This document shows, piece by piece, positions 25,585 to 55,649 of a stretch of DNA of 64,000 nucleotides. The stretch is from Somniosus microcephalus (taxonomy: Eukaryota): contig CM126212.1 of the NCBI GenBank assembly GCA_052327205.1, positions 7,874,001-7,938,000 of the forward strand, in the 5' to 3' direction. The notes beneath the pieces are model-generated. The model did not search any database, had not been told where the DNA came from, and was given only the letters and a program-made list of their open reading frames with translations. Every line of letters begins with the position of its first letter. Positions within the stretch are counted from its first letter, which is position 1. A program made the translations under genes and the position numbers.

Positions 25585-26275
25585 GCTGTACTTTACGCAA
25601 AAATTCACCTTCAAAGTAAGTTACTTTGCAGCAATCAGTTTTTAAAAATAACGTATTCTGGATTCAAGCCGAGTTTGACAATCTCTAACATGTCTCCAAG
25701 TCGCTCAAGATCATTGAGAATTGGTGCTTTCATTTATGCATACCACATTGCTTCAGACCGTCATCGCCTGAAGGGCACTTTTGTAAAAGGTGCTGGGGGG
25801 TGGGGTTGGAGAAAGAGAGGCTAGATGACCTCGGAGGAACATTAGATAGAGATCGAGCTCTTGAACGGGTCATTTATAAGCGTACGATTGCTTTCTAAAT
25901 AAATCCCTGGAGGACAGAAGGAGTTTGTGAATGACAAAGGACAAGGAACGCATTTTCGTTCTGAAAAAAGCACAGATGGTACCGATGAAAAAAGATATGG
26001 AAAACCTGCGATCAAACTGCAGTGAAGATTAAAAGGATCATGCTAAAACGACCAGCCATAGCGTGGCACCTTACACATTTGAATGCGCTCGACTTGCTGT
26101 GCCCCGGACTTGCTCTGCCCCAACGTGCAAACAAGATGTCCTGACGAATGGGACAGATCCAGCAAACATGCGCCATCTTGTCTAACATAGGATATACGAG
26201 TTAGAGGCAGCATTAAACAAAGGACAGATACACATACATTATTTAAACGGAAAGAAGTCACCGTGGTCCATTTAC

Positions 26276-26441
26276 CTTCCTTAGTCTGTGCGTTGGTGAT
26301 CTGTAAATCGCAGTCTGCCGCCTTCAGCTTCTCTCTGGCCATGATGGTCTTCTTTAGATCACTCAAAGAAATATGAAGCCCATCGAAAGTGACCGTGTCA
26401 TAGTTCAGTTTAGAGGAAAATTTGTAATGTACACACGACAT
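26276..26441 (-). CDS. RBBP6: RBBP6 coding exon 1, DWNN ubiquitin-like domain (MSCVHYKFSSKLNYDTVTFDGLHISLSDLKKTIMAREKLKAADCDLQITNAQTKE)
   Basis: ATG at 26441-26439; 166 coding nt; donor G|GTAAAT; near-identical to the recalled human RBBP6 N-terminus. Confidence 0.98.
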
Positions 26442-27690
26442 TTTTTGTTTTTTTTTGAATGGGACAAGCCTTACCCACAAAAAAGTTTTTACCCTTTTAA
26501 CACTGCAAAACACAAAAACAAAAAAAATCCTCTTTTTCACAATTTAATTTCCATATCTGAAATTCAAGTATTTAGATTTTCTGTTGTATTAAAGCAATTT
26601 TATAAAAAAAAAACACTATACTGGATCGTAAAGTCAGGAAATAACTGTCTTCCTTTTAACTGCACATAGCACAAAATTAAATACTAGCTGTTTTACTCAC
26701 TAATAAACGGATAGTTCAAAAGTCAATGGTATAGTTTAAATGTCCAAGAAATTGTACGAAGTCCAAAGGATTTATTTCCCAAGGTAAAGAGTTCAAAAAT
26801 ATTCAGTTTATTATTTTCCCTCTTCCTTTTTATTACAAAGCCGCAATGCAGTATGTCTCGGCGCAGTTTTTTTTTAAATCTAAGAGAATCAGGTCCACGT
26901 TTGTGTCTTGGTTTCCTTCCTTCGGAAAATCCAGTTGCAACAACGATGGCGTGTCTGGGTTCGTTCCTCGCCCACAGACACGGTCCTCGGCAGCAGCTCG
27001 GAGTGTTGTCTCTCCTTTTGGTGAAATTGGGGGGGGAGCTGGAGCAGGGTGGAGAGGGGGTGGGTGGGGGTTGTTGGTTATTTTACCCAAAAAGTCACTG
27101 GCAAAGTAAAAGAAGAAAAAAAATACATAACAGCAGCCACACAAATCTCACACAAGGCCCCACCAGAGCTGCGCCTCTTTTTTGTGTGTGTGCTGCTCTC
27201 GGGAAGTATTTCTCAGGAGCCAGTGGGATCCAGCATGGCCTTTTATCCGATAGAATGAGGGGACGGGGCGGGGAAAATGGGAAATAAGGAAGAATGGGGG
27301 GTGGGTGGGGGGGGTAGGTTGGGATGAATGGGGGTGATGTGGGTACGCAGAGTCGGCGCTCCGATGGATGACGAACACACACACGGTAGGTAGAGGCCGG
27401 CCGGCTGGTTCCTGGCGGGAGGCTTCCTAGGCTCAGCTCCAAGCGGTAGGCCCGGCAGCGTCTCTCAGGCGCATCTTCGCACTGCGGCCCCCCCACGCAA
27501 CCCCCGTCACTCCACCTCGCTTACGGCCCAGGTTAATTTAAAAAAAATAATAAAATATCTTCTCAAGTACTTCAACCGTTACACAGGGGCAGGGGGGCGG
27601 CGGCGGCGCCTGAAGGCCAGGTCTGAGGCGACTGCCGCACTTTCAAACCGACACCAGCTCTCCGCCACAACAATGGCGGCTCCAACCCGA
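26442..27690 (-). other. RBBP6: Probable long RBBP6 5' leader
   Basis: No recognisable repeats between the CpG island and the ATG; exact TSS not determinable. Confidence 0.55.
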
Positions 27691-34794: not shown

Positions 34795-35690
34795 ACTGAA
34801 GTCAGTGGGAATTGGGAGGATGGGGGGGCGGAATTCTCCACTGGTTGGAGTCATACCTAGCACAAAGGAAGATGGTTGTGGTGGTTGGAGGTCAATCATC
34901 ACAGCCCCATGACGTCGCTGCAGGAGTTGCTTGGGGCAGTGTCCTTGGCTCAACCATCTTCAGCTGCTTCATCCCCTCCATCATAAGGTCAGAAGTGGGG
35001 ATGTTCAATGTCATTCGCAACTCCTCAGATAATGAAGCAGTCCATGCCCGCATGCAGCAAGACCTGGATGACATTCAGGCTTGGCCTGATAAGTGCCAGG
35101 TTACCATCAATATCCTGGGGGTCACCATTGACCAGAAACTTAACTGGACCAGCCACATAAATACTGTGGCAACAAGAGCAGGTCAGAGGCTGGGTATTCT
35201 GCAGAGAGTGCAGCTCCAGCAACACTCCATAAGCTCGACATCATCCAAGTCAAATCAGCTCGCTTGATTGGCACCTCATCCACCACCTTAAACATTCACT
35301 CCCTCCACCACCGGCGTACCGTGGCTGCAGTGTGTACCACCTACAAGATGCACTACAGCAACTCGCCAAGGCTTCTTCGGCAGCACCTCCCAAACCCGCG
35401 ACCTCTTCCACCTAGAAGGACAAGGGCAGCAGGCGCATGGGAACACCACCACCTCCAAGTTCCCTTCCAAGCCACACACCATCTTGACTTGGAAGTATAT
35501 TGCCGTCCCTTCATCGTTGCTGGGTCTAAATCCTGGAACTCACTCCCTAACAGCACTGTGGGAGTACCATCACCACACGGACTGCAGTGGTTCAAGAAGG
35601 CGGCTCACCACCACCTTCTCAAGGGCAATTAGGGATGGCCAATAAATGCTGGCCTTGCCAGCGATGCCCACATCCCATAAATGAATAATT
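34795..35690 (+). mobile_element. CR1-clade LINE (second family), internally deleted
   Basis: RT-region motifs WLESYLAQRKMVVVVGGQSS...GSVLG; 3' end AAGGGCAATTAGGGATGG...AATAAATGCTGG. Confidence 0.85.
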
Positions 35691-40425: not shown

Positions 40426-41354
40426 ACAAATTTAAAAAAAGTATTGATTAAAACAAGAACAAGAGGGATTGGAGGGGAGAGAAGAATTGTGCCTCAAACG
40501 ACAAATTGTTGCTTTTAACCCTTTCAGGAGTGAGGGGTGCTGGAAGAGCATCACCAGATATGATAACAGTATTCAAGTTTTAACTTGTTAATTTAATTTT
40601 CAACTAAAAGGGGGAATAAAAGGGTAGGAAACTTAAAATTAGATCTTAATGTGCTTGGAATTTTATGAGATGCAGACTTTCCAAATTGAGGCAAGTTGTT
40701 TTATTGTTTGATGCTGTAGAGGAAGCAATCCATGCTGAAAGTGTGCTTTCAGATAGTGTGAACCTACAGTTTCAAATACCAGAGACTTGTTCAGAATATT
40801 GAATAAATCAAGTAAGCTAAAAGTGATGACTCAGTTTGCGTCTTGTCATTTACTGTCCTTGTCCGAGGAGTGGTCGGTGCGGAGTATAAAAAGTGCAACT
40901 CGTTCCTTCGCACTGACAGCCCAGTTTGATGAGCACAAAAATTATTCACCAGAAAGATGATTTTTTACATTTCTTTTGAAGCCTTCTTTCTTTCCCTCTC
41001 TCCACCCCAAAAAGGAATAATAATCAGACTTTTGTTTCTTGCAGTCGTTAGTGTGTTGCACTCCTCAGTTATTTGTATTATTTCTGTCTTTGTATAGGCA
41101 TCACAGTGAATGGCTGCTTTCTTCAATTAACAAATTGTTGAAATTAACTAGCTTTCTGATGTTTTGGGTTTTGTGTGTTTTCTTGTGTCCTCTTCCCCAG
41201 TCCCAGGTTATCAACAAGAGTTCAGGTGCCCTGCACAGAGAGGGAAAGGGGAAAGAGACTGGAAGATAAATGGAACTGTTAGGTGGAGAGCGGTCTTTTG
41301 AGGCCTGGGATCAGGTAGCTTGTCCCCCTTTTTGGGTGTAAAAAGTACATCTGG

Positions 41355-42180
41355 ATGCAGGGAGGAGGTCCAGCATCTCTTGAAGTGGTACACCGATAAC
41401 AACCTGGCCCTCAACATCAAGAAAACCAAAGAAATCATTGTGGACTTCAGGAAGTCTGAAGGCGGAAGTCACACCCCCATCCACATCCATGGGGCTGTGG
41501 TGGAAAGGGTGGACAGCTTTAAGTTCCTCGGCGTCCACATCACGGAAGTCCTCTCCTGGTCCCTCAATACCTTCTCTCTGGTGAAGAAGGCCCAGCAGCG
41601 CCTATATTTCCTAAGGAGGCTGAAGGGATGTAACCTGTCACCCCTGATCCTCTCTAACTTTTACCGCTGCACTATAGAGAGCATCCTGACAAACTGTATC
41701 ACAGTATGGTATGGCAGCTGTAGCTCCGATGACCAGAAAGCCCTGCAGCGGGTAGTCAAAACTGCCCAACGCATTACCGGCACCCGGCTACCGACCATAG
41801 AGCACATATACCAGAAACGCTGTTTACGGAGGTCACAGTCCATCATCAAAGACCCTACCCACCCCAGCCACAGTCTGTTCGCCCTCCTGCCATCTGGGAG
41901 ACGCTACAGATGCATTCGCACCCGAATGACCAGATTTAGGAACAGCTTCTTTCCCAGGGCTGTCATCCGACTGAACTCCACAAATAAACGCTAAAGCCTG
42001 CACATCTGCCAATGCACTTTATTAAGGTTATGTTTATGTTAATGTATTACAAGCCAAATGTATGTTGAATGTTTAAATGTCTTAATCTAAATGTACACTC
42101 TCTGGAGCCGCAAGCCTACATTTCGTTGTACTGCACTTGTGCACTAACAATGACAATAAAAGTTGATTTGATTTGATTTG
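41355..42180 (+). mobile_element. Rex1/Babar-clade LINE, 5'-truncated
   Basis: Uninterrupted ORF end NNLALNIKKTKEIIVDFRK...FKFLGVHI...KKAQQRLYFLRRLK...FYRCTIESILT...RFRNSFFPRA; tail AATAAAAG(TTGAT)n. Confidence 0.9.
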
Positions 42181-42471: not shown

Positions 42472-45407
42472 GTAAATACTTGATTTTAACCACAATATTT
42501 ATATCTTGATTCAAAAGGTTTTCTGCCATTTAAAAATGTCAGTCTTGTTTTTCAAGGAGTGATTTCTCATTGGTGCACCATGGGCTGTCCAGGGTCAAAC
42601 AGAACATCTGATTCAATTATTTTTTTCCCATTTGCTTTTTGTAAAAAAAAAAGTATAAATGAGATTCAAAAGAACAAAAAAAATCATGTCCATAAAATTT
42701 CACACTTTAAAAAAAAATCTTTAATGGGTTTTCCGCTCCCCGCTTGCATAGTATTCCTTCCATGGTTTGAGTTAGTCCAGCCACAAAGTACAAGCCATTT
42801 GCTGAATCAGAGTGATCCAATGTTGCAATCAAAGAAGTAGAAAGATAATACAGTTGTAACTTGGGTGCTGTGCGGAAGTCGTTCCCAAATGGCTTTGCAG
42901 TTACAGGTTTAAATCTTCATGTAAATTCAGCACTGAGTCATGGGCGGGATTAGAATGCATTTATGTGGTGAGGCACTGCATTGGCAACCTGGAAATGGTG
43001 AGTGGGTGGGGAGTGGAGAAATACTTGGGTTTAATGCCTTTATCGCAGTTTGTGAATAATGCCTGCTTTCACGTATGCTCTGATTTAACCTATCGAAAGC
43101 AACAGGAATCGTAAATGTCAACACGACTGATTACTTAAAATGGGAATAAAGTTCAGAACCGCAATTACAATTTGGACTTCTTCCTAATGGCTTTCTTGCA
43201 TTTGGATTCGATTCCTGTTTCCATGAGTAACCAAAGCATGTTTATTATTACCACGTATGGGCTAATACAGCCCAGGTTTAACAATTGCACCTGACTCGTG
43301 ATGAATTGCTTACCCGGAGAATGTGTGAGCTGGCCATCACATTTTGCTGTCACCTCAAAAGATAAAGAATGCGATATCAGCAGACGACTGCACACAGCAA
43401 ACACTTTTGTCAAGATTTATTTACAAATAAAAACAACAAATCGGCATGATACTTTTCAATGCAATACGTAATGGTGAATTAGAACCAGTTAATATACCCT
43501 ATTCCAGAAAACTGCTTCTTGTAGTCTCTTTGTAGGCAACACCTCCTGTGTATGAAACAACTTAGTTTTCTGTCTCCTATTTCCTTTGGGATGAGATTTT
43601 GCAAATGGAATGCGTGAGCTTCAAATGCTCATGTAGCTTGCGGGTGTTTCAGGCAGGATTGAAGAACATTGAAAGCTAAATATATATTGTACCCTTTCTG
43701 TGGTTTAAATACAAGGCAACAGACACTGGCGAATAAAGGCGCAGTACATGAGAATGGTAACATGGAAAGTTGAATGCAGACTGGATCACAAGTACCTGGT
43801 AAAGCCTGACCATCAGCTTGCTCCGAGTCTGAAGCCAAGCAAGCACCTTTCACTTCACTAAATTCCAGACACTTAAACATTGGACAGTAAACTGAAAGTT
43901 ACACTTAAGACTGCATTTGTTAGCTATCAGAGCCCTTGTCTCAATTGATTTTTGAGTAGCGGGCATTGTTTAATTACATGCAGACTATCAGTCTCCTGTC
44001 TTCAGAACCTTAGTGAAGAGAGAGCAGCCTCCATATTAAACTCTGGATTATGTTTTTAAAAAAATGAAATAAAGACAAATTCCCATTGTGACACATTTTC
44101 AAACCGAGGCAGTGAATATACCAATTGAGACTGAATTATCAAATGAAGTGCTTGATTTGCATCCACCATTTTGAAAAGCTGATGTTTCAATTGGTGGATA
44201 TGTATTTAGTCTATTCCATTCTGTTGAAACATGCATTTCAGTGACCCAAACCCATAGTGATTTACATGTTTATATTACTACGTGTAAATGAACACGCCCT
44301 AGTTTACATCAAGGTGCTGAGGAAGCTGTGCCAGTCTCACAGCATTTCTGTTTGTAGCTGCAGAAGGTGGAATAGATTTATATGCTAAAATTGTGCTGAT
44401 CGCAGATAGTTGTAGGAGAGCTCGTGAAGATACTGGCTTACTTGTTACGAATTGGACTTTTATTGTGGGTTGTGCAGATTGACTATATAACATACAGGAA
44501 CTGCATGTAAGCTCATTTTAGACGGTGTGATCAAATTCATTTTCCTTTTTTTTAAATTTTGTTTAATAAATTTGATTTGCAAAAATATCATTTTTTGTCA
44601 CATTTATTTGTGCTTGTCATTCTCTGTTTTGAGATTCATTTCATCTTTTGAGAGTTTATGCACTTCACACGAGGCCAGGTTTTTACAATATTTTGTATAG
44701 TTTGCTAAACGTTTATTTCATGGTGCGGTTAATCGCGACCACCTCAATGGTAATCTGCAGAAATGCTTTTCAGGAAAATAATCCTGTTCACTGCAAGCTA
44801 AGAAACTTTTAGCTTCTGTCGACCAGACGCCCTTTCCGATGGCTTCTCCTTCTGTAGCTACTTTATTTTATTTAATGCCTCTTGTGTGTTTTTCATTTTC
44901 TGTAAGATCTACTTTGTCGCTCCCTCCTCCCTGAAGTGATGCTGTGCTCTGCTGCATAAGGGGAGCTTGGTGTCTGTTCTTTGCCAAACCATTTTTTGGA
45001 CCCAGTGACTCGCTGAACGATGAGAACGCTTTGTCGTCTGACTTGGCTGCGGATGAATATTTTGAGTTATTTTTCATGCTTCCACCCAGGGAATGATCTA
45101 GTTCCCATTCCCCCAGGTTGTTCCAGTGAGTCATTGTGGGGGAAGAACTCGACTCCCCAACCTTGGAAGCCGGAAACTTCATTCTGTTCATCCGTTCTTG
45201 GGTTTCCTGGAATCCTAGAAATTGGAGCACACAAGGCGGCCATTCAGCCTGTCGCCCCTGTGCCATTGCTTGCCCTTCAGCGGCAGCTGTCCCTTCCAAT
45301 CCAATTTGTCTTCCCTTTCCTTGTATCCTTTTATATTTTCTCTAAATATTTATCCAGTTTCCTTTTTAAATTACGTATTTGCCACTGTCTCGATGTGGGA
45401 TGCTTAG

Positions 45408-45664
45408 TGTTAAGTATGTGTATTGTATTGAACAATTAACACAAAGACTTAAACGTATAACTCAAACAGGTCTTTACTGGTTGGAGGTAGGGACTGCACG
45501 TAGGTCTTTACTTCATGCCCACAGGCGGGAACTGAGGGGAGATCAGTACCCACCGTACTATTTATACCCCTATGGCCAGGAATGGTACTGCGTATCACTA
45601 CGCCCTACAAGTAGTGCAGTCCTGTCCATAGGTTCAAAGTAGCACACATATTACATACACAACA
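45408..45664 (-). repeat. 3' LTR (257 bp)
   Basis: TGTTAAGT...ACACAACA; differs from the other LTR by 3 substitutions and one 5-bp indel by eye. Confidence 0.95.
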
Positions 45665-45677
45665 TTCCTCCCTTCTT
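45665..45677 (-). other. Polypurine tract AAGAAGGGAGGAA
   Basis: All-purine run immediately upstream of the 3' LTR on the element strand. Confidence 0.9.
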
Positions 45678-45980
45678 AGCTTTACAGTCATCTCCCCATT
45701 TAACATAACGTAATAACATATATACATATATAACTTCAGGTTTACATAACAGAATAACATAGATACATAGATAACTTCATGTCAAAACAGATCACAGATT
45801 CAGTCTCTGCGGAAAACAGTTCACAGATTCAATCTCTGTGGTGTAGTCGGTTCACGTTGCTGGAGTGACTCATTCAATAGTCCTTCCATGGATTTAACAG
45901 TTTGAACTTCCGAACTGAATTGGCTCCGTTCGGAGGGACCACGTGTGTGATCTGGTAGAGGTAATAATGGTTCAGATGGG

Positions 45981-47327
45981 TCATCTTCTGTTTCGACTTT
46001 TCCTTTTCTGCTTCTTGGAGACTCTCTGGGCTCCACTGTCAGCTGCCAGCTGCATGCGCAGTTCCTCCTTCTCTTCCTCCTTTTTCTGTAGTAGAGCCAC
46101 CTTCTCCCGATGTTCCGTAGACTTTCGGTGCTCCTCCATGATTTCTGTATGGTGGGAGTCGAAGTTACAAGTTGGGCAGGACAGGACATAGTAATATTCG
46201 GTGTCGTCCTGATCTAGGCCAGCGAGAGGGTCTTCTATTTCCTCCATACCCAGCTGGGCGTTAGCCAGCTTTTGTTCCAAGTCCAGACATCTTTCCTGAA
46301 GAGACTTCTTCATGCGTACCTCTTCATCCAGCTTTTTCTGGGCTTTCAGCAAGTCGTTTACTAATGACCTCATTTGAGATTTTACTACTTCAACTTCTTT
46401 TGGAGATTGATTGATCGGACTATTCAATCCCTCTACCGGAGCAGCTGTTTCAGCGGTCTGTTGTTCTACGTTGACGTGAGTCAGCGTACTTTTGGCATCC
46501 AAGGGCTGCTCTGTTGCAGTCATCTCAGTCTGTGTTGCCACCTCAGCTCTTCCAATAACCTTTGAGAGCTCCGAACCCCTTTCGTTTGAATATTGAAGTT
46601 CGTGTTCAAGTTTTTCCCATTTCAGAGTCCTGTCCTTCAGCATATGCAGGAGTTGGCTGACCGTTAACTCCTCTGACATCAGACGTTTTGTGTGCTCCTG
46701 CTCCATTTTCTCCATCAGCTGCTTCTGTTGTCTTTCCAGATTCTCCAACTCTATATCAAAGAACTCTTTCGTTGCATTCAACTCTTGCTCAAAACGGCGA
46801 AGCATTTGTTCTAATTGCTGTTGTAGTTTGAAATGGAGTTGAGTTCGAGCCCGGTGTCCCTCAGAAATGGGCACATCAGTAGACTTGCCAGACTCAGAAT
46901 CCACAGTTAAACTATGTTGTTGTTGCTCAGTGGAATTCTGTGCTGAAACTTTGTCTTTTGCACCTGAGTTGGGCTTACCATCATCCGTTCCAGAGTCTGG
47001 GCCGACTATCTTCACCGAGTTCTCACTCGTTATTGTTTGTAGGAAATGCCAGTCCATATTCATTTTCCTAATCCACTCCCGTCCTAGTAGTGGAGGACCT
47101 CCTTCAGATATCACATATAAGTCCATTATTTGACTGTCTTCGCCCTTGTGGACCACTGCAACCTCTATTTTCCCGATGGGGTACACTCTTTGCCCCGTGT
47201 ATGTTTTCAATATAATCCCCGTATCCTGTAGGGGAATATGTTGGAATAACTTTCCGTAATCTTTTTTATTTATGACCGTCAATGCCGATCCAGTGTCCAA
47301 TTCCAGTTTTACTTGGACTCCTTCTAT
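45981..47327 (-). CDS. Retropepsin-like protease fused to STK10/SLK-like coiled coil, optineurin-like coiled coil, matrin-type C2H2 finger and basic tail
   Basis: Open frame [19 protein letters not shown]...[11 protein letters not shown], then [41 protein letters not shown]...EVATQTE...[13 protein letters not shown]-x12-H-x5-[12 protein letters not shown]. Confidence 0.85.
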
Positions 47328-48197
47328 CTAAAGAGTGACCCAAATTGTCTGGAGGTCTGCACCCTTACCAGCGTTGAGTACTCTTAAGCTAGCCAGTTCA
47401 TTACAGCTTAAGCTAGCCAGTTCATTACTGCTAGCGTCTGAATCGGACTCCTGTTCGGCCACCTTGTGTACCTTTGCGTATTTTCCTTGCGGTGACTTCT
47501 TGTTGCTGGTCTTCTTCCCTGACCTGCAGACTCTAGCTATGTGTCCAAGCCTACCACAAGTTCTACATTCTTGGTTTTTAAACCAACACTGGTTCTGATC
47601 ATGCGTTGTCTTTCCACAACGATAACATTTGCCAGAACTCTCACCCAATTTGTGTGCACTGAGCTCCGGTGACCGTAGCTGCATTACTGCCGTGCCTCTC
47701 GCTGCGGCTTCGTGTGCTGCCGCCATAGTGACCGCCTTCTCAAGCGTCAGCTCATTCTCCTCGAGCAGTCGCTTTTGTGTATCCTGTTTAAATAAACCAC
47801 ACACAAATTTGTCTCGTAGTGCATCTGTCAGTCCCGTTCCAAACTGGCAATATTTCGCTAATTTACGCAATTCCAGCAAATATTCAGCATTGCTTTCATG
47901 CTGCAGCTGCCTTCTGTCGTAAAATTTAAATCGTTCCGCTAGCATCAGCGGCGTGGGGTTTAGATGATCTTTCAGGACAGTAACAATCTCATCGAACGTC
48001 TTATCCGCCGGTTCATCTGGTGATAACGGGTGTTTCAATTGCCCGTATGTCTTCGCACCCATTAAATTTAATAATGTTACAGCTTTATCTTGGTCACGAA
48101 TTTTATTGGCCTTACAAAAATTTATTACTCTTTCAACATATATGGCCCAATCTTCGAGGTCACTATCAAAGGTGCTAATATTCCCGTGTTTAGGCAT
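47328..48197 (-). CDS. Gypsy-type Gag (289 aa) with two zinc knuckles
   Basis: EDWAIYVER...LRDKFVCGL...LTLEKA capsid-like region; CYRCGKTTHDQNQC and CRTCGRLGHIARVC; same frame as the protease, separated by one TAG. Confidence 0.92.
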   Translation of the reverse strand: MPKHGNISTFDSDLEDWAIYVERVINFCKANKIRDQDKAVTLLNLMGAKTYGQLKHPLSPDEPADKTFDEIVTVLKDHLNPTPLMLAERFKFYDRRQLQHESNAEYLLELRKLAKYCQFGTGLTDALRDKFVCGLFKQDTQKRLLEENELTLEKAVTMAAAHEAAARGTAVMQLRSPELSAHKLGESSGKCYRCGKTTHDQNQCWFKNQECRTCGRLGHIARVCRSGKKTSNKKSPQGKYAKVHKVAEQESDSDASSNELASLSCNELASLRVLNAGKGADLQTIWVTL

Positions 48198-48781
48198 TGT
48201 CGATTTGCAATTTCTCAGATTTTATTTTCTTTACTTGTTAGCAAAGATGGCGGCTTCCCGCTCTTGCCGTCGTCCTCCGCCCACAAAATGGCGGTTTTCC
48301 CGCGCTTGGCGGTCTTCACCCGTCCCCCGACGCCGTCTCCCTTCAGCCCCCGAGTGCGGCCCTTATCTTCGCCGCGATCGCCCGAGTGCGGCCCTTATCA
48401 GCGGATGCGATCGCTGGATCGCGAAGTGGCTCCTGACCGAAGCGGCTCTCGGCCCTTATCTTCTGTGCGATCGATAGCCCGCGCTGTGCACCGCGGCTCT
48501 CGCACCTTGAGCTTCTGCAGCCGCCGCGCCTTTCAGTCCGAGTGCGGCCCTTTATCTTTGGTCCCGATCGCTGGCCCTGTCTTTGCAGCCAACGCTGCTC
48601 GGCTTACCCACGAGGTTATGGAGGCTTCAGGGTCCTAATGCCTGTCGCTTCCAGTCGCTGGAAGCTGTCAGGATTTCTCCTGCCCTTCAGTTTTGAGTGG
48701 GGTGTTGAGGATTGAAACCTCTCCAACGTCCTGTCTTTGGACGAAGCCGCCGTGGAATAACTGCCGCAGGGTTCGAACCGA

Positions 48782-48791
48782 CTCGTCGCCA
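48782..48791 (-). other. Primer-binding site TGGCGACGAG (tRNA-Ser(GCU)-type)
   Basis: 1 nt after the 5' LTR; complementary to the recalled 3' end CUCGUCG-CCA of vertebrate tRNA-Ser(GCU). Confidence 0.8.
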
Positions 48792-48792
48792 G

Positions 48793-49044
48793 TGTTAAGT
48801 ATGTGTATTGTATTGAACAATTAACACAAAGACTTAAACGTATAACTCAAACAGGTCTTTACTGGTTGGAGGTAGGGACTGCACGTAGGTCTTCATGCCC
48901 ACAGGCGGGAACTGAGGGGAGATCAGTACCCACAGTACTATTTATACCCCTATGGCCAGGAGTGGTACTGCATATCACTACGCCCTACAAGTAGTGCAGT
49001 CCTGTCCATAGGTTCAAAGTAGCACACATATTACATACACAACA
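48793..49044 (-). repeat. 5' LTR (252 bp) with TATA box and AGTAAA poly(A)-like signal
   Basis: Direct repeat of 45408-45664; TATAAATA on the minus strand at 48939-48946. Confidence 0.95.
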
Positions 49045-49599
49045 CTTAGGGATAAAGAATTCAAATTAAGAATTTTTTTCACCGGTTTTCTTAACTTCTC
49101 TGTTCATTCTCCCAGTAATAATTCTGACTGGATGCCCCCCTTTTGCCTTCATTAAAGCCACTGTCGTGTTGCAGCAAAATAGATAATGTGAGCCCCATTT
49201 CAAACTCTTTGAAATGGCAAGCAGGCAACTTGCTCTGAGCCCAGACAATTCTGATCTCTAGTTAGCTACAAAGTGATGCACAAGCGTGACCCTGGAGGAA
49301 CACTTTGTGCACTTCTGCTGACATGAGGTACTTGCTTTGTGAGTAACCATAAACTCTGACTTCCGTCCTTTCACTGTGCCATCGCATGTTGGTACCTCCG
49401 TGCCCTGTACATTTACTGTGGCTTAGCTGGAAGAGTAATATTTGTAAAAGATTTAATAGATCCATTCCCTGTGGTGTTTCTGCAAAATCATGTTGAAGCA
49501 CATTACATTTCTTTGCGAGTTCATAGTTAGATTTTTGAAACACAATTGGAGCAAGAAAGACTTGAATTAAAACAGTGTCTTCTGTTTCTTAAACCCCCT

Positions 49600-49950: not shown

Positions 49951-51224
49951 TGCATATACTACTGTGTATGTATGATTTTTAAGTATGGTTATACATATCT
50001 CTATCCTCTTGAGCGTTTGAAAGCAAGATAATTCTTGTGTATTAGCTTCCCAATGTATAGACTTTAAAAAAGAAACTCTGTCTGTTGCAAGTGTTTAGTT
50101 TGAGCCCGGTGCCGCACCTCTGGACACATGACCTTTGGCTTTAGGCGGTGCCATTGAGTCTTGCTGAACCGATGACTGTGAAGATTAGTCTCGAGTGTCC
50201 TGAGATTACTTGTTCCTTGCTCGTTGTTGATGCAAAAGGGAGACTGATTCTCTGACCGTCATGGCCGAGCAACGTAGGAACCTGGAAGGTACATATCGAC
50301 ACAGTCTTGAGGTTCTGGCAATGTTATTCAAACCTCTCAATCGTATAACCAGCTAATATCTTGGATCCCTCAGTTTATGTAGTTGAAATGCAGATAGTGT
50401 GCAATATTGTATATTATGTTTTCTTGCATTCTGCTTGTATTAAACAGAGTGCTATTTTACTAGTTGTGTAATGCAATATACATTCAAACAGTTGCTGTCA
50501 ATTGTTCAAAAAGGTTATGCCTCCCCTGCATGGGTCAAGACACCTGCTGTTTTGTGATTTTGGGAAAGGTACAAGCATATTTTTCTTGGGTTTAAAAAAA
50601 AAAACCCCAATAGGCTGTATATAGTTGCCTGACACTGATTCTGTCTTGAAGTTGCTAAACTGCTTGAGTTTCACTCTTGTGGTTTGATCTAGATATTGCT
50701 CAGTTGAATTGTGATCTTTATAGCTCCCTCTCAACCATCTGTTGTGTGTCGTATTATTTCAATACCCACAGCTTGTTATTTAAAGATTTTGTATTTTCTG
50801 GGGAGTCCACAAATTTAATTTCCTGTGAAGTAATTTAAATATTGCAGCATAATTTGAGCTGCAGTTGGATTAAGGGAACTGCACACTCCCTATAATGATT
50901 GGCAGAACAGAATGGCTGGAAGTTGTTGGCTGTTGCTGCCTCTGAAAAGTAACTTTTTTAACATTTTCAGTTTTGTTTAGTGTAAAAGAAACCTCCTTGC
51001 TGCACAGTTCTCTAGAAAGAGGAAGAAGGAAAATTTGAGGGACCCTGTTTTCCTGCTCTTGGGAGCAGGTACCTGCTCACATTTTCCTCCAGGAATCGGT
51101 CTCTGGTGTGAGTGGATTTTTTTTTTTTTATATAAGGGTTTAACCAAAGTGTCTTTGTTTAATGACTGTTGCAGAGACCAACTTTGTATGAAATGAGATT
51201 TAAAAAAAAACAGAACTGAAGGTG

Positions 51225-51372
51225 ATACAAAAACAGAAAATGCTGGAGATACTAAGCAGGTCAGGCAGTATCTGTGGAGATTCTCTTCACAGATGCTACC
51301 TGACCTGCTGAGTATCTCCAGCGTTTTCTGTTTTTATTTCAGATTTCCAGCATCTGCAGTATTTTCTTTCTG
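51225..51372. mobile_element. Short palindromic insertion with 14-bp TSD, probably derived from Penelope-like element termini
   Basis: ~52-bp imperfect inverted arms (AAAAACAGAAAATGCTGGAGATACT...TCTGTGGAGA / TCTTCACAGATGC...CAGCGTTTTCTGTTTTT); CAGAACTGAAGGTG at 51211-51224 and 51373-51386. Confidence 0.7.
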
Positions 51373-53004: not shown

Positions 53005-54460
53005 TTTTAAAATTCATTGATGGGATGTGGGCGTCGCTGGCTGGCTAGGCCTGCATTTAGTGCCCATCCCTAATTGCCCTTGAGAAAATGGTGGTGAGCC
53101 GCTTTCTTGACCCGCTGCAGTCCATATGGTGTCGGTACACCCACAATGCTGTTAGGAAGGGAGTTCCAGGATTTTGGCCCAGCGACAGTGAAGCAACGGC
53201 GATACAGGTCCAAGTCAGGATGGTGTGTGGCTTGGAGGGGAACTTGTAGGCGGTGATGTTCCCATGCGTCTGCTGCCCTTGTCCTTCTAAGTGGTAGAGG
53301 TCGTGGGTTTGGAAGGTGCTGTTGAAGGAGCTTTGGCGAGTTGCTGCAGTGCATCTTGTAGATGGTACACAGTGCAGCCACGGTGCGCCGGTGGTGGAGG
53401 AAGTGAATGTTGAAGGTGGTGGATGGAGTGCCAATCAAGCGGGCTGCTTTATCCTAAATGGTGTCGAGCTTCTTGAGTGTTGTTGGAGCTGCACTCATCC
53501 AGGCAAGTGGAGAGTATTCCATCACACTCCTGACTTGTGCCTTGTAGATGGTGGAAAGGCATTGGGGAGTCAGGAGGTGAGGCACTCGCCGCAGAATTCC
53601 CAGCCTCTGACTTGCTCTTGTAGCCACAGTATTTGTATGGCTGGTCCAGTTCAGTTTCTGATCAATGGTAACCCCCCAGGATGTTGATAGTGGGGGATTC
53701 AGCGATGGTAATGCCATTGAATGTCAAGGGGAGATGGTTAGAGTCTCGCTTGTTGGAGATGATCATTGCCTGGCACTTGTGTGGTGCGAATGTTACTTGC
53801 CACTTGTCAGCCCAAGTCTGAATGTTGTCCAGGTCTTGCTGCATATGGACACGGACTGCGTCTGTGTTTGACGAGTCTCGAATGGTGCTGAACAGTGTGC
53901 AATCATCAGCGAACATCCCCACTTCTGACCTTATGATGGAGGGAAGGTCATTGATGAAACAGCTGATGATGGTTGGGCCTAGGACACTGCCCTGAGGAAC
54001 TCCTGCAGTGATGTCATGTGATTGAGATGAATGACCTCCAACAACCACAGCCAACTTCCTTTGTGCTAGGTATGATTCCAACCAATGGAGAGTTTTCCCC
54101 TTGATTTCCATTGACTTCAGTTTTGCTAGGGCTCCTTGATGCCACACTCGATCAAATGCTGCCTTGATGTCAAGGGCAGTCACTCTCGCCTCACCTCTGG
54201 AATTCAGCTCTTTTGTCCATGTTTGGACCAAGGCTGTAATGAGGTCAGGAGCTGAGTGGCCCTGGCGGAACCCAAACTGGGCATCAGTTACCAGGTTATT
54301 GCTGAGTAAGTGCCGCTTGATAGCGCTGTCGACGACACCTTCCGTCACTTTGCTGATGATTGAGAGTAGACTGATGGGACGGTAATTGGCCGGGTCGGAT
54401 TTGTCCTGCTTTTTGTAGACAGGACATACTTGGGCAATTTTCCACATTGCCGGGTAGATG
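53005..54460 (-). mobile_element. CR1-clade LINE (second family) with well-preserved RT region
   Basis: WKIAQVCPVYKK...NYRPISLL...QFGFR...ALDIKAAFDRV...GVPQGSVLGP...FADD; frameshifted downstream. Confidence 0.92.
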
Positions 54461-55649
54461 CCATATTTGGGGGTACCCCCTGTTATATTTCACAGCTCAA
54501 CCTATTGACCATTCTGGGTAGAGTGCAGTGGACCCCCAGGTGAGCCTGCCAAAAACACGCTGCTGTCTGTAAAAAAGGAGCATCACAATACTTTCAAAAA
54601 TGTCTACAACAGACAGTAAGTCCATTCCTTACAATATCATTCCAAAACATTGTTGATTAAGACACTGAATAGGATGAAGGACAGTGGACAACCTCGCCTC
54701 ACTCCTCTCTCATTTGATACGCGAGCTTGTTACACAGTTCGCTAGCCTTTTGGTAGTTGGCATCTAAAGCACTGTAGAACATCACAGTTACCTCAAACAC
54801 CCTTGAACTTTTTCTCTTGATGAGGATTTGAACTACTTTGATGCCCTTGGGTAAAAGTAACACTTTGGAAGACCCATCTTTGAGGAATTCCATGCACCAG
54901 GAAGGAAAATCCATGTAGTTGGCAGCATGGAAAGAATTTGGGGTTTTTCTGATCAATGAATTGCTTGGGAGTTCAGGAGACCATGGAGTTGAGCTGCAAA
55001 GAAGCTGAATAATACTTTTACTCAATCTGTGACTTAGACTGGAACAATGACGAGTGTTGTTGATGGGTTGATATTGGGATATAATGTTCCCTGTACTTGC
55101 TTAAAAAGTGCCTGTCCATAATGTATAATGTGTTTACTTGTACAGCTAAGTGGATGTAAATCACACAAGGCTTTCAAAAACACAACTTTCATGATTTAAG
55201 GAGTGCTGAGTTAAGCGGTTATTTATAGTTATTCACTTTGTGAGTTGAAGGCTGAAATAAATTCTGACCATGATGTACTTGAGCAGTGAACGGGTGAGAT
55301 GGGGGACACCTTTCAGGAAAGCAGTGGCGAGTTACCTACAAGCATGCAAAAACATCATTACGATATTATCTGTCAATGAACAATATAACTGCAATGCATA
55401 TACTACATAAGTTTACCTCCCAGTTACATACCGATGATTTGTACAAATAACCGCTTTTGGCGGGGTGGCTTAGGTTGGGGGGGGGAGTATTTTCCTAATA
55501 TTTAATTGTTGCCAATTTGCAAAGTTAGAAAGAGGAGGAGGCTGATGATAGGAAAATATTTGTGATGGGTGGATGTTAGTTTGGAGACTGTATCCATGAT
55601 TGGTAGTGGATGTGCTTTGCCGGACGTATCTGCAACATTGCCCTTTTAT

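What the first reader, a model, noticed from the sequence alone, without database searches (positions are those of the whole stretch)
45403..49049. Young LTR retrotransposon whose pol is replaced by an in-frame mosaic of host-like gene fragments
Seen: a complete cis-architecture (LTRs, PBS, PPT, TSD) around one 2,217-nt frame (45981-48197, a single internal TAG) encoding Gag, protease and ~350 aa with no RT, RNase H or integrase motifs. The extra part resembles at least two unrelated host proteins (STK10/SLK, optineurin) plus a zinc finger and basic tail, joined without stops or frameshifts. Established: retroviruses and LTR elements can transduce host mRNA by template switching. Inference: a non-autonomous family, mobilised in trans, carrying a multi-gene chimeric cargo; keeping the frame across several junctions hints at selection for a Gag-linked accessory protein that the element's own protease could release. 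I do not know a description of such a family.
Basis: partly seen in the sequence, partly recalled or inferred. Interest (0 to 1): 0.92.

Follow-up and report, generated by a model that had tools for sequence, protein, structure and literature searches.

The report
Shark retrotransposon collecting host gene pieces
A shark jumping gene lost its own copying enzymes, took up what looks like one full loop of a circular host RNA plus pieces of other host genes in the same reading frame, and spread to thousands of copies, giving an unusually clear natural record of how such elements copy host RNA.

Summary
Confirmed and extended. The element (minus strand; LTRs, PBS, PPT, 5-bp TSD) is one of 4,305 copies sharing its STK10-optineurin junction in a 6.4-Gb shark genome. 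Its internal stop is private (1 of 28 readable copies). The cargo is spliced host mRNA: STK10, optineurin and a zinc-finger gene exon. Relatives record the history. The founder replaced pol with five STK10 exons joined last-to-first exactly at splice sites, one 1,245-nt turn, with microhomology at both ends. That back-splice junction stands in 1,139 copies. Later lineages deleted, added other gene pieces and swapped Gag-protease backbones between pol-bearing families, keeping the frame at 18 of the 19 junctions I read. The family is abundantly transcribed. Gag is under purifying selection. Best reading: a Gag-keeping parasite whose RNA must stay translatable to its end, with cargo as filler. 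It is a new variant of LTR gene capture (Bs1; Tan 2016) and supplies junction-level evidence for circular-RNA retrotransposition.

The parts
49045..49049 (.). target-site duplication CTTAG, right copy
48793..49044 (-). 5' LTR, 252 nt, TG...CA
48782..48791 (-). primer-binding site TGGCGACGAG, one base after the LTR (tRNA-Ser match recalled, not tested)
   Evidence: all ten letters in 28 of 30 close copies as printed
48198..48781 (-). GC-rich 5' leader with variable repeats; most length variation between copies lies here
47351..48197 (-). Gag: capsid-like region and two CCHC knuckles (47636-47523); dN/dS 0.28 against nearest pol-bearing relative; boundary with protease approximate
47030..47350 (-). 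aspartyl protease with DTG motif; holds this copy's private stop at 47328-47330
46951..47028 (-). STK10 large exon (aa 336-559 exon), piece 1, 88% nt to the host exon
46858..46954 (-). STK10 large exon, piece 2, 86% nt
46681..46862 (-). STK10 PKK coiled coil, two exons spliced together at about 46775, 91-94% nt
46237..46688 (-). optineurin, four exons spliced together, 81-92% nt, with a 21-nt deletion shared with B-type relatives
46231..46248 (-). short STK10 piece from the aa 290-335 exon (the exon that follows the back-splice junction in relatives)
45990..46230 (-). C2H2 zinc finger and basic tail from a third host gene (host exon at G000:C1:4.79 Mb, 81% nt; DNAJC21 by recall); zf-C2H2_jaz above cutoff in less diverged relatives
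45869..45989 (-). STK10 exon junction remnant (end of aa 290-335 exon, start of large exon), out of frame after the stop codon at 45981-45983
45821..45868 (-). integrase C-terminal tail remnant ending in its own stop
45665..45677 (-). polypurine tract
45408..45664 (-). 3' LTR, 257 nt
45403..45407 (.). target-site duplication CTTAG, left copy

Best explanation
A non-autonomous Ty3/Gypsy (Mag-like) retrotransposon. Origin (sequence shown, mechanism inferred): during reverse transcription of a pol-bearing parent, RT jumped from the integrase tail onto a co-packaged back-spliced STK10 RNA at an 8-nt match, copied one full turn and jumped back to the protease-RT linker at a 12-nt match, replacing pol. 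RNase H destroying the circle behind RT would explain why exactly one turn was taken (inferred). Descendants deleted, captured optineurin, a zinc-finger gene and others by the same route, and this lineage took its Gag-protease half from a second pol-bearing family (shown by tree). It spreads with RT and integrase borrowed from pol-bearing relatives (inferred) and contributes its own Gag (purifying selection shown). The frame is kept because the RNA has to be translated almost to the 3' LTR, as the single gag-pol frame of the parent is, to escape nonsense-mediated decay or to be packaged; the cargo is mostly a tolerated, soluble stand-in for Pol (inferred). I put about 0.9 on the origin and about 0.6 on the filler reading.
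For: Exact exon-end to exon-start junction, 1,245-nt turn, same 11 nt at both ends. 1,139 copies of that junction. Parent L155 has RT, RNase H and integrase in Gypsy order, is 95-96% identical to the founder type over leader, gag and protease, and shares 12 nt with STK10 at the switch point. A related integrase tail shares 8 nt at the other switch point. Introns absent from all cargo pieces. Gag-protease of this type nests in pol family 2 with 100/100 support. Gag 24 syn: 21 nonsyn, p=7e-5 against site share; protease 5:13, p=0.5. Cargo not different from private changes (p=0.68). All 3 shared indel events in the frame are net multiples of three, against 83 of 110 UTR indels that are not. Cargo content turns over between lineages.
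Against: No test of decay or packaging was possible. Cargo dN/dS on this lineage is 0.57-0.69, one-sided p 0.045-0.15 depending on the transition weight, and the optineurin part gives 0.36-0.67, so some protein-level constraint is not excluded. The zinc ligands survive. Three cargos are coiled coils. The host circle itself was not shown in RNA, and no inverted repeat was found between the flanking introns. Ty1 Gag shows no cis preference (PMC3945221, passages), so why Gag is selected in cis needs a reason. No pol-bearing family closer than 86-88% to this type's gag-protease was found.
Confidence: 0.58

Rival explanations
1. The cargo is a selected accessory protein on Gag: a coiled-coil stalk with an RNA-binding-type zinc finger and basic tail that helps particle assembly, RNA capture or nuclear entry, or acts as a dominant-negative decoy of optineurin-dependent autophagy.
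For: Frame kept at 18 of 19 junctions read. Optineurin part dN/dS 0.36-0.67. Both Cys and both His kept although the sequence between them was rewritten by compensating indels. The optineurin-bearing types have 4,305 and 4,060 copies against 1,139 for back-splice-bearing types. About 700-800 reads per million in two RNA runs.
Against: STK10 part dN/dS 0.75-1.3, zinc finger and tail 0.9-1.2 between sister types, protease 0.88. The optineurin stretch with the recalled LIR motif is in B but deleted in this type. Cargo genes differ between lineages. No protein evidence.
Confidence: 0.25
2. Frame-keeping is largely a by-product: microhomologies between coding sequences tend to be in phase, the cargo is neutral baggage, and only Gag matters.
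For: Exact 8-10-mer matches among these coding sequences are in phase 52-60% of the time. Several relatives were found by protein or long-frame searches, which favours open frames. The last junction of this type does leave the STK10 frame.
Against: 7 of 7 upstream junctions of this copy, found by DNA, are in frame (p=0.015-0.03 at 55-60%), and 18 in all (p about 1e-4, ascertainment not corrected). Shared indels in the frame are net multiples of three.
Confidence: 0.1
3. The permuted STK10 piece came from a linear exon-repeated (intragenic trans-spliced) transcript or a tandem exon duplication, not a circle. This concerns the origin only.
For: Such transcripts give the same junction and are mistaken for circles (PMC10450196, abstract). 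Both switch points have their own microhomology to the same STK10 site, so one turn does not need RNase H. No intron inverted repeat found.
Against: Each exon occurs once in the 50 kb of host locus read. No STK10 sequence from outside the five exons was seen in any cargo examined. That circles outnumber such transcripts is recalled knowledge.
Confidence: 0.1
4. Host sequence is kept as camouflage: small RNAs against the element would hit STK10, optineurin and other essential genes, so silencing is restrained.
For: High expression; cargo of B and C types is 96-99% identical to host exons. The idea is recalled from plant gene-capture work.
Against: It does not need an open frame. This type has drifted to 81-94% identity and is the largest type counted.
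Confidence: 0.05

Closest known systems
Maize Bs1 (passages in PMC5131818, and PMC13317346)
   Same: LTR element with pieces of three host genes in place of pol, forming a hybrid frame, copied again after capture.
   Different: Bs1 has one to five copies and one piece out of frame. Here there are at least 9,504 junction copies, a series of intermediates, at least six donor genes across the clade, a back-spliced donor and a swapped Gag backbone.
LTR-mediated retrocopies in animals (Tan et al. 2016, PMC5131818, passages)
   Same: Internal ORF replaced by intronless mRNA pieces, microsimilarity at junctions, both LTRs kept, multi-gene chimeras, further rounds of retroposition.
   Different: In the passages seen, older retrocopies mostly carried loss-of-function changes, and the words circ and Rfwd2 do not occur in the main text. 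Here the cargo stays fused to Gag-protease through thousands of copies.
circRNA-derived pseudogenes, mouse circRFWD2 (Dong et al. 2016, PMC4897178, main text part 1 of 2)
   Same: Non-colinear exon junction in genomic DNA, many copies, LTR sequence nearby, no poly(A).
   Different: 33 high-confidence copies there, with the mechanism called mysterious. Here 1,139 copies sit inside complete elements with both switch points, the parent and exactly one turn visible, read in frame with Gag. Their supplements were not seen.
Single-frame gag-pol Gypsy elements annotated K02A2.6-like (Mag clade by recall)
   Same: Gag-protease 35-51% identical to such polyproteins; two knuckles; pol-bearing relatives with one 1,319-1,335-codon frame.
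   Different: No RT, RNase H or integrase core; host cargo instead.
Acutely transforming retroviruses with gag-onc fusions (recalled)
   Same: Helper-dependent element with host coding sequence fused in frame to Gag in place of pol.
   Different: Gypsy lineage, no envelope seen, germline spread, no catalytic host domain in the cargo examined.

Membership tests
Ty3/Gypsy LTR retrotransposon | Direct LTRs TG...CA, PBS, PPT, short TSD | tested here: met
Ty3/Gypsy LTR retrotransposon | Gag with CCHC knuckle and aspartyl protease | tested here: met
Ty3/Gypsy LTR retrotransposon (autonomous) | PR-RT-RNase H-IN in that order | tested here: not met
   Absent in this element; present in that order in relative L155. 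So it is a non-autonomous derivative.
Mag clade | RT phylogeny grouping with named Mag elements | not tested
   No named references at hand; label recalled from single frame, two knuckles and PBS
LTR-mediated retrocopy (Tan 2016) | Intronless host mRNA pieces replacing internal ORFs between two LTRs | tested here: met
LTR-mediated retrocopy (Tan 2016) | Microsimilarity at switch points | tested here: met
   12 nt and 8 nt at the founding switches; short shared stretches at 4 of the 5 junctions of this copy displayed, little at the protease-STK10 junction
LTR-mediated retrocopy (Tan 2016) | Further retroposition with shared switch points | tested here: met
circRNA-derived retrocopy (Dong 2016) | Non-colinear junction exactly at splice sites | tested here: met
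   In relatives: 12 of 14 distinct C loci by pattern, 1,139 genome-wide. The window copy has lost the junction under optineurin but keeps the permuted order.
circRNA-derived retrocopy (Dong 2016) | Only exons from within the circle, no poly(A) tail | tested here: met
circRNA-derived retrocopy (Dong 2016) | Parent circular RNA shown to exist in the host | not tested
   Reads were laid on the element; element transcripts carry the same junction
Domesticated single-copy Gag gene | One fixed intact copy | tested here: not met
   4,305 copies; this copy has a private stop
Retroelement accessory gene | Clear purifying selection on the added protein | tested here: inconclusive
   dN/dS 0.57-0.69, p 0.045-0.15; not different from private changes

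The most novel reading that the evidence does not exclude
A retrotransposon clade is evolving a new Gag-linked accessory domain in place of Pol, seeded by one turn of a host circular RNA and refined by serial in-frame capture of host coiled coils and a zinc finger. The module moves between Gag backbones like a cassette and raised copy number after optineurin was added, for example by aiding assembly or blunting optineurin-dependent autophagy of element particles.
Probability: 0.25. Interest if true: 0.93.

Novelty: new variant of a known kind. Interest (0 to 1): 0.82.

Why it matters
How circular RNAs get copied into genomes was left open in Dong et al. 2016. Here the parent element, both switch points and one exact turn are preserved in over a thousand copies, which points to template switching by an LTR-element RT. 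The clade is also a large natural experiment, at least 9,504 copies or about 0.5% of the genome, with ordered intermediates: it allows a direct test of why defective LTR elements keep a long open frame and how accessory genes arise. Practically, thousands of expressed intronless STK10, optineurin and other fragments will confound gene annotation, duplication counts and RNA-seq in these sharks.

Tried and rejected
Read-through of the internal TAG: rejected, the stop is private. First-look candidate numbers as copy numbers: rejected; 23,841 and 208 disagree with whole pattern counts of 4,060 and 4,305. PDB searches for the cargo and zinc finger: 0 hits, only weak zinc-finger hits for the less diverged form. 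Homologue search for the zinc finger: none among 28 candidates. Atlas searches: all scores under 0.9. The representative search gave 17 hits; the 11 identified are optineurin or STK10/SLK-like and none of those began with gag, the other 6 were not read. The first pol-bearing family found is only 64-72% identical in gag-protease and is not the parent. A pol-bearing element with this type's exact protease end: 1 hit, a cargo copy. A cargo-free precursor with linker joined to tail: 0 hits. Inverted repeats between the introns flanking the circle: none. PF21884 and DnaJ searches did not name the zinc-finger donor. dN/dS of B and C types against host (0.14-0.60) was set aside because those copies were ranked by protein score and the counts include host-branch changes. 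No RNA holder was listed by the run index; RNA runs came in by species label. No structure or complex job was run. Literature searches found no description of this family; Repbase and Dfam could not be searched.
Full report
1. The element lies on the minus strand: 5' LTR 48793-49044, 3' LTR 45408-45664, TG...CA ends, 3 substitutions and a 5-nt indel between them, TSD CTTAG, PBS at 48791-48782, purine tract at 45665-45677. The frame 48197-45981 has one TAG at 47328-47330. Pfam gives knuckles, weak gag and protease hits and PKK above cutoff, with no RT, RNase H or integrase. The host is a shark: the best named homologues are shark optineurins (72%) and shark STK10 (69-81%). The genome has 6.45 Gb.

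2. It is one copy of a large, recent family. All 34 candidates scored were near full length at 94-99%. Of 29 other copies fetched, 23 have an unbroken frame (two of them look like the same insertion), and the stop is in 1 of 28 readable copies, this one. A whole-genome pattern count of this type's STK10-optineurin junction gives 4,305 places at up to 2 mismatches, control 0. Among 19 further copies with an LTR pair, 6 have identical LTRs. Twelve public runs under four organism labels hold half or more of the cargo's words. Two RNA runs of organism B gave 12,072 and 11,597 reads (about 725 and 806 per million records read), with depth across the whole internal region and none in the flank. One run is strongly strand-biased in the direction expected for sense transcripts in most stranded libraries; the other shows both directions. 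Reads were laid at 94% likeness, so sister types contribute.

3. The cargo is spliced host mRNA. I located host STK10 (G000:C8:167.2 Mb) and optineurin (G000:C17:85.9 Mb) and laid the cargo on their exons. This copy holds two pieces of the large STK10 exon, two spliced PKK exons, four spliced optineurin exons, five codons of the STK10 exon for aa 290-335, then a zinc-finger module, at 81-94% identity. The module's donor is a third gene: less diverged relatives hit zf-C2H2_jaz above cutoff and match a host exon with a splice acceptor at G000:C1:4.79 Mb at 92-97%, this copy at 81%. The name DNAJC21 is recalled, not from a call. After the stop codon lie an out-of-frame STK10 remnant and an integrase tail.

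4. Relatives record the history. Type C is Gag-protease, then STK10 from the middle of the large exon through three more exons, then the end of the aa 645-704 exon joined exactly, donor to acceptor, to the start of the aa 290-335 exon, then on to the starting point, then an integrase tail, at 98-99% identity to host. The five exons sum to 1,245 nt, 415 codons, and the same 11 nt stand at both ends. The junction was seen by pattern in 12 of 14 distinct C loci and in 1,139 places genome-wide. Each exon occurs once in the 50 kb of host locus read. A pol-bearing relative, L155, has RT, RNase H and integrase in Gypsy order, is 95-96% identical to C over leader, gag and protease, and shares 12 nt in the same phase with STK10 at the left switch. 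A related integrase tail shares 8 nt at the right switch. Type B adds optineurin over the back-splice junction (4,060 junction copies). Type A' keeps B's junction and adds the zinc finger. This copy's type deletes further. In a tree of 16 single copies its gag-protease nests inside a second pol-bearing family, 100/100, while B and C group with L155 (86-88% versus 76%): the cargo moved to a new backbone. Other branches carry a piece 99% identical to a host exon with the MLL taspase sites (sites from PMC4486195, passages), tandem Ig domains of titin or obscurin type and a myosin-tail-like coil (CGNL1 by recall). The three mutually exclusive junctions sum to 9,504 copies, about 0.5% of the genome.

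5. What is selected. The frame: 18 of 19 junctions I read across the clade are in frame, the exception being this type's last one, which ends the frame about 320 nt before the 3' LTR. Microhomologies among these coding sequences are in phase 52-60% of the time, which explains part of it; 7 of 7 upstream junctions in this copy give p=0.015-0.03, and 18 give about 1e-4 before correcting for my protein-biased searches. Among 49 copies, the 3 shared indel events in the frame are net multiples of three, while 83 of 110 UTR indels are not. Gag: 24 synonymous to 21 non-synonymous changes against the nearest pol-bearing copy, whose own branch is short, dN/dS 0.28, p=7e-5 against site share and p=0.047 against private changes. 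Protease: 5 to 13, dN/dS 0.88. Cargo on this branch: 22.5 to 40.5 over 212 codons, dN/dS 0.57-0.69, p 0.045-0.15, and no different from private changes, 13 to 29, p=0.68; optineurin part 0.36-0.67, STK10 part 0.75-1.3; gag versus cargo p=0.08-0.12. These counts are small and pairwise.

6. How it most likely works. Shown: architecture, donors, permuted junction, parent, swaps, copy number, transcription, selection on Gag and on frame. Inferred: capture by RT template switching in the particle; RNase H limiting the copy to one turn; mobilisation by borrowed RT and integrase; frame kept so the RNA is translated to near its end, with the cargo as filler (0.58 overall). Against it, the protease is relaxed, the stretch with the recalled LIR motif was lost, and cargos turn over. 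A linear exon-repeated donor cannot be excluded (0.1; PMC10450196, abstract), and I found no intron inverted repeat favouring a circle. Ty1 shows no cis preference (PMC3945221, passages), so selection on Gag in cis is not a given for LTR elements.

7. Against what is known. It meets the tests for an LTR-mediated retrocopy (PMC5131818, passages) and resembles maize Bs1. Its founder meets the sequence tests for a circRNA-derived copy (PMC4897178, main text part 1 of 2; also PMC5408686, passages), where LTR involvement was suggested and the mechanism left open. Searches found no description of this family or of a circle captured in frame inside a complete element; subscription papers, Repbase, Dfam and the supplements of Dong 2016 and Tan 2016 were not seen and may bear on that. 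An earlier unchecked note of this scan reports a similar Gag-host chimera in rays; it is a lead only.

8. Verdict.

Noticed in passing
window 26043-26543 (-): Exon with a DWNN domain (RBBP6 by recall). The element lies about 19 kb upstream in the same orientation.
   Followed up: partly
L068:2236-7303 (G000:C8:167.21 Mb): A decayed pol-bearing Gypsy element, about 70% identical in gag-protease to the cargo types, sits in the 15.5-kb STK10 intron just before the circularised exons, in the gene's orientation.
   Followed up: partly
G000:C3:354658271-354658948 (L070): Intronless copy of the STK10 C-terminus at 97% identity among LINE fragments, a separate ordinary retrocopy.
   Followed up: partly
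L144, L145, L150 (donor exon L146): Branch with a 481-nt MLL/KMT2A-like piece right after the protease. It includes taspase site 1 and stops just before site 2, so a host protease could cut there; untested.
   Followed up: partly
L145:269-943 (-), L152: Two to three Ig domains of titin/obscurin type inserted in frame inside the STK10 piece; donor locus not found.
   Followed up: partly
L159, L161: Myosin-tail-like coiled coil (CGNL1 by recall) joined in frame to STK10 before the back-splice junction.
   Followed up: partly
window 46670 (loose read ends): 92 and 74 RNA reads continue from the optineurin piece into an unidentified sequence: a further expressed variant.
   Followed up: no
window 45821-46213 (-): The out-of-frame STK10 remnant and integrase tail remain an open 130-codon second frame in 29 of 30 close copies; a frameshift product is possible but untested.
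   Followed up: partly
G000 genome-wide: At least three pol-bearing families of this group coexist, one with 1,625 exact copies of a 30-nt linker motif.
   Followed up: partly
window 53662-54489 (-), 41302-41994 (+), 34800-35632 (+): LINE reverse-transcriptase fragments, ordinary repeats.
   Followed up: no
window 51223-51341: 58-nt inverted repeat, 88% complementary, in a short interspersed repeat-like stretch.
   Followed up: no
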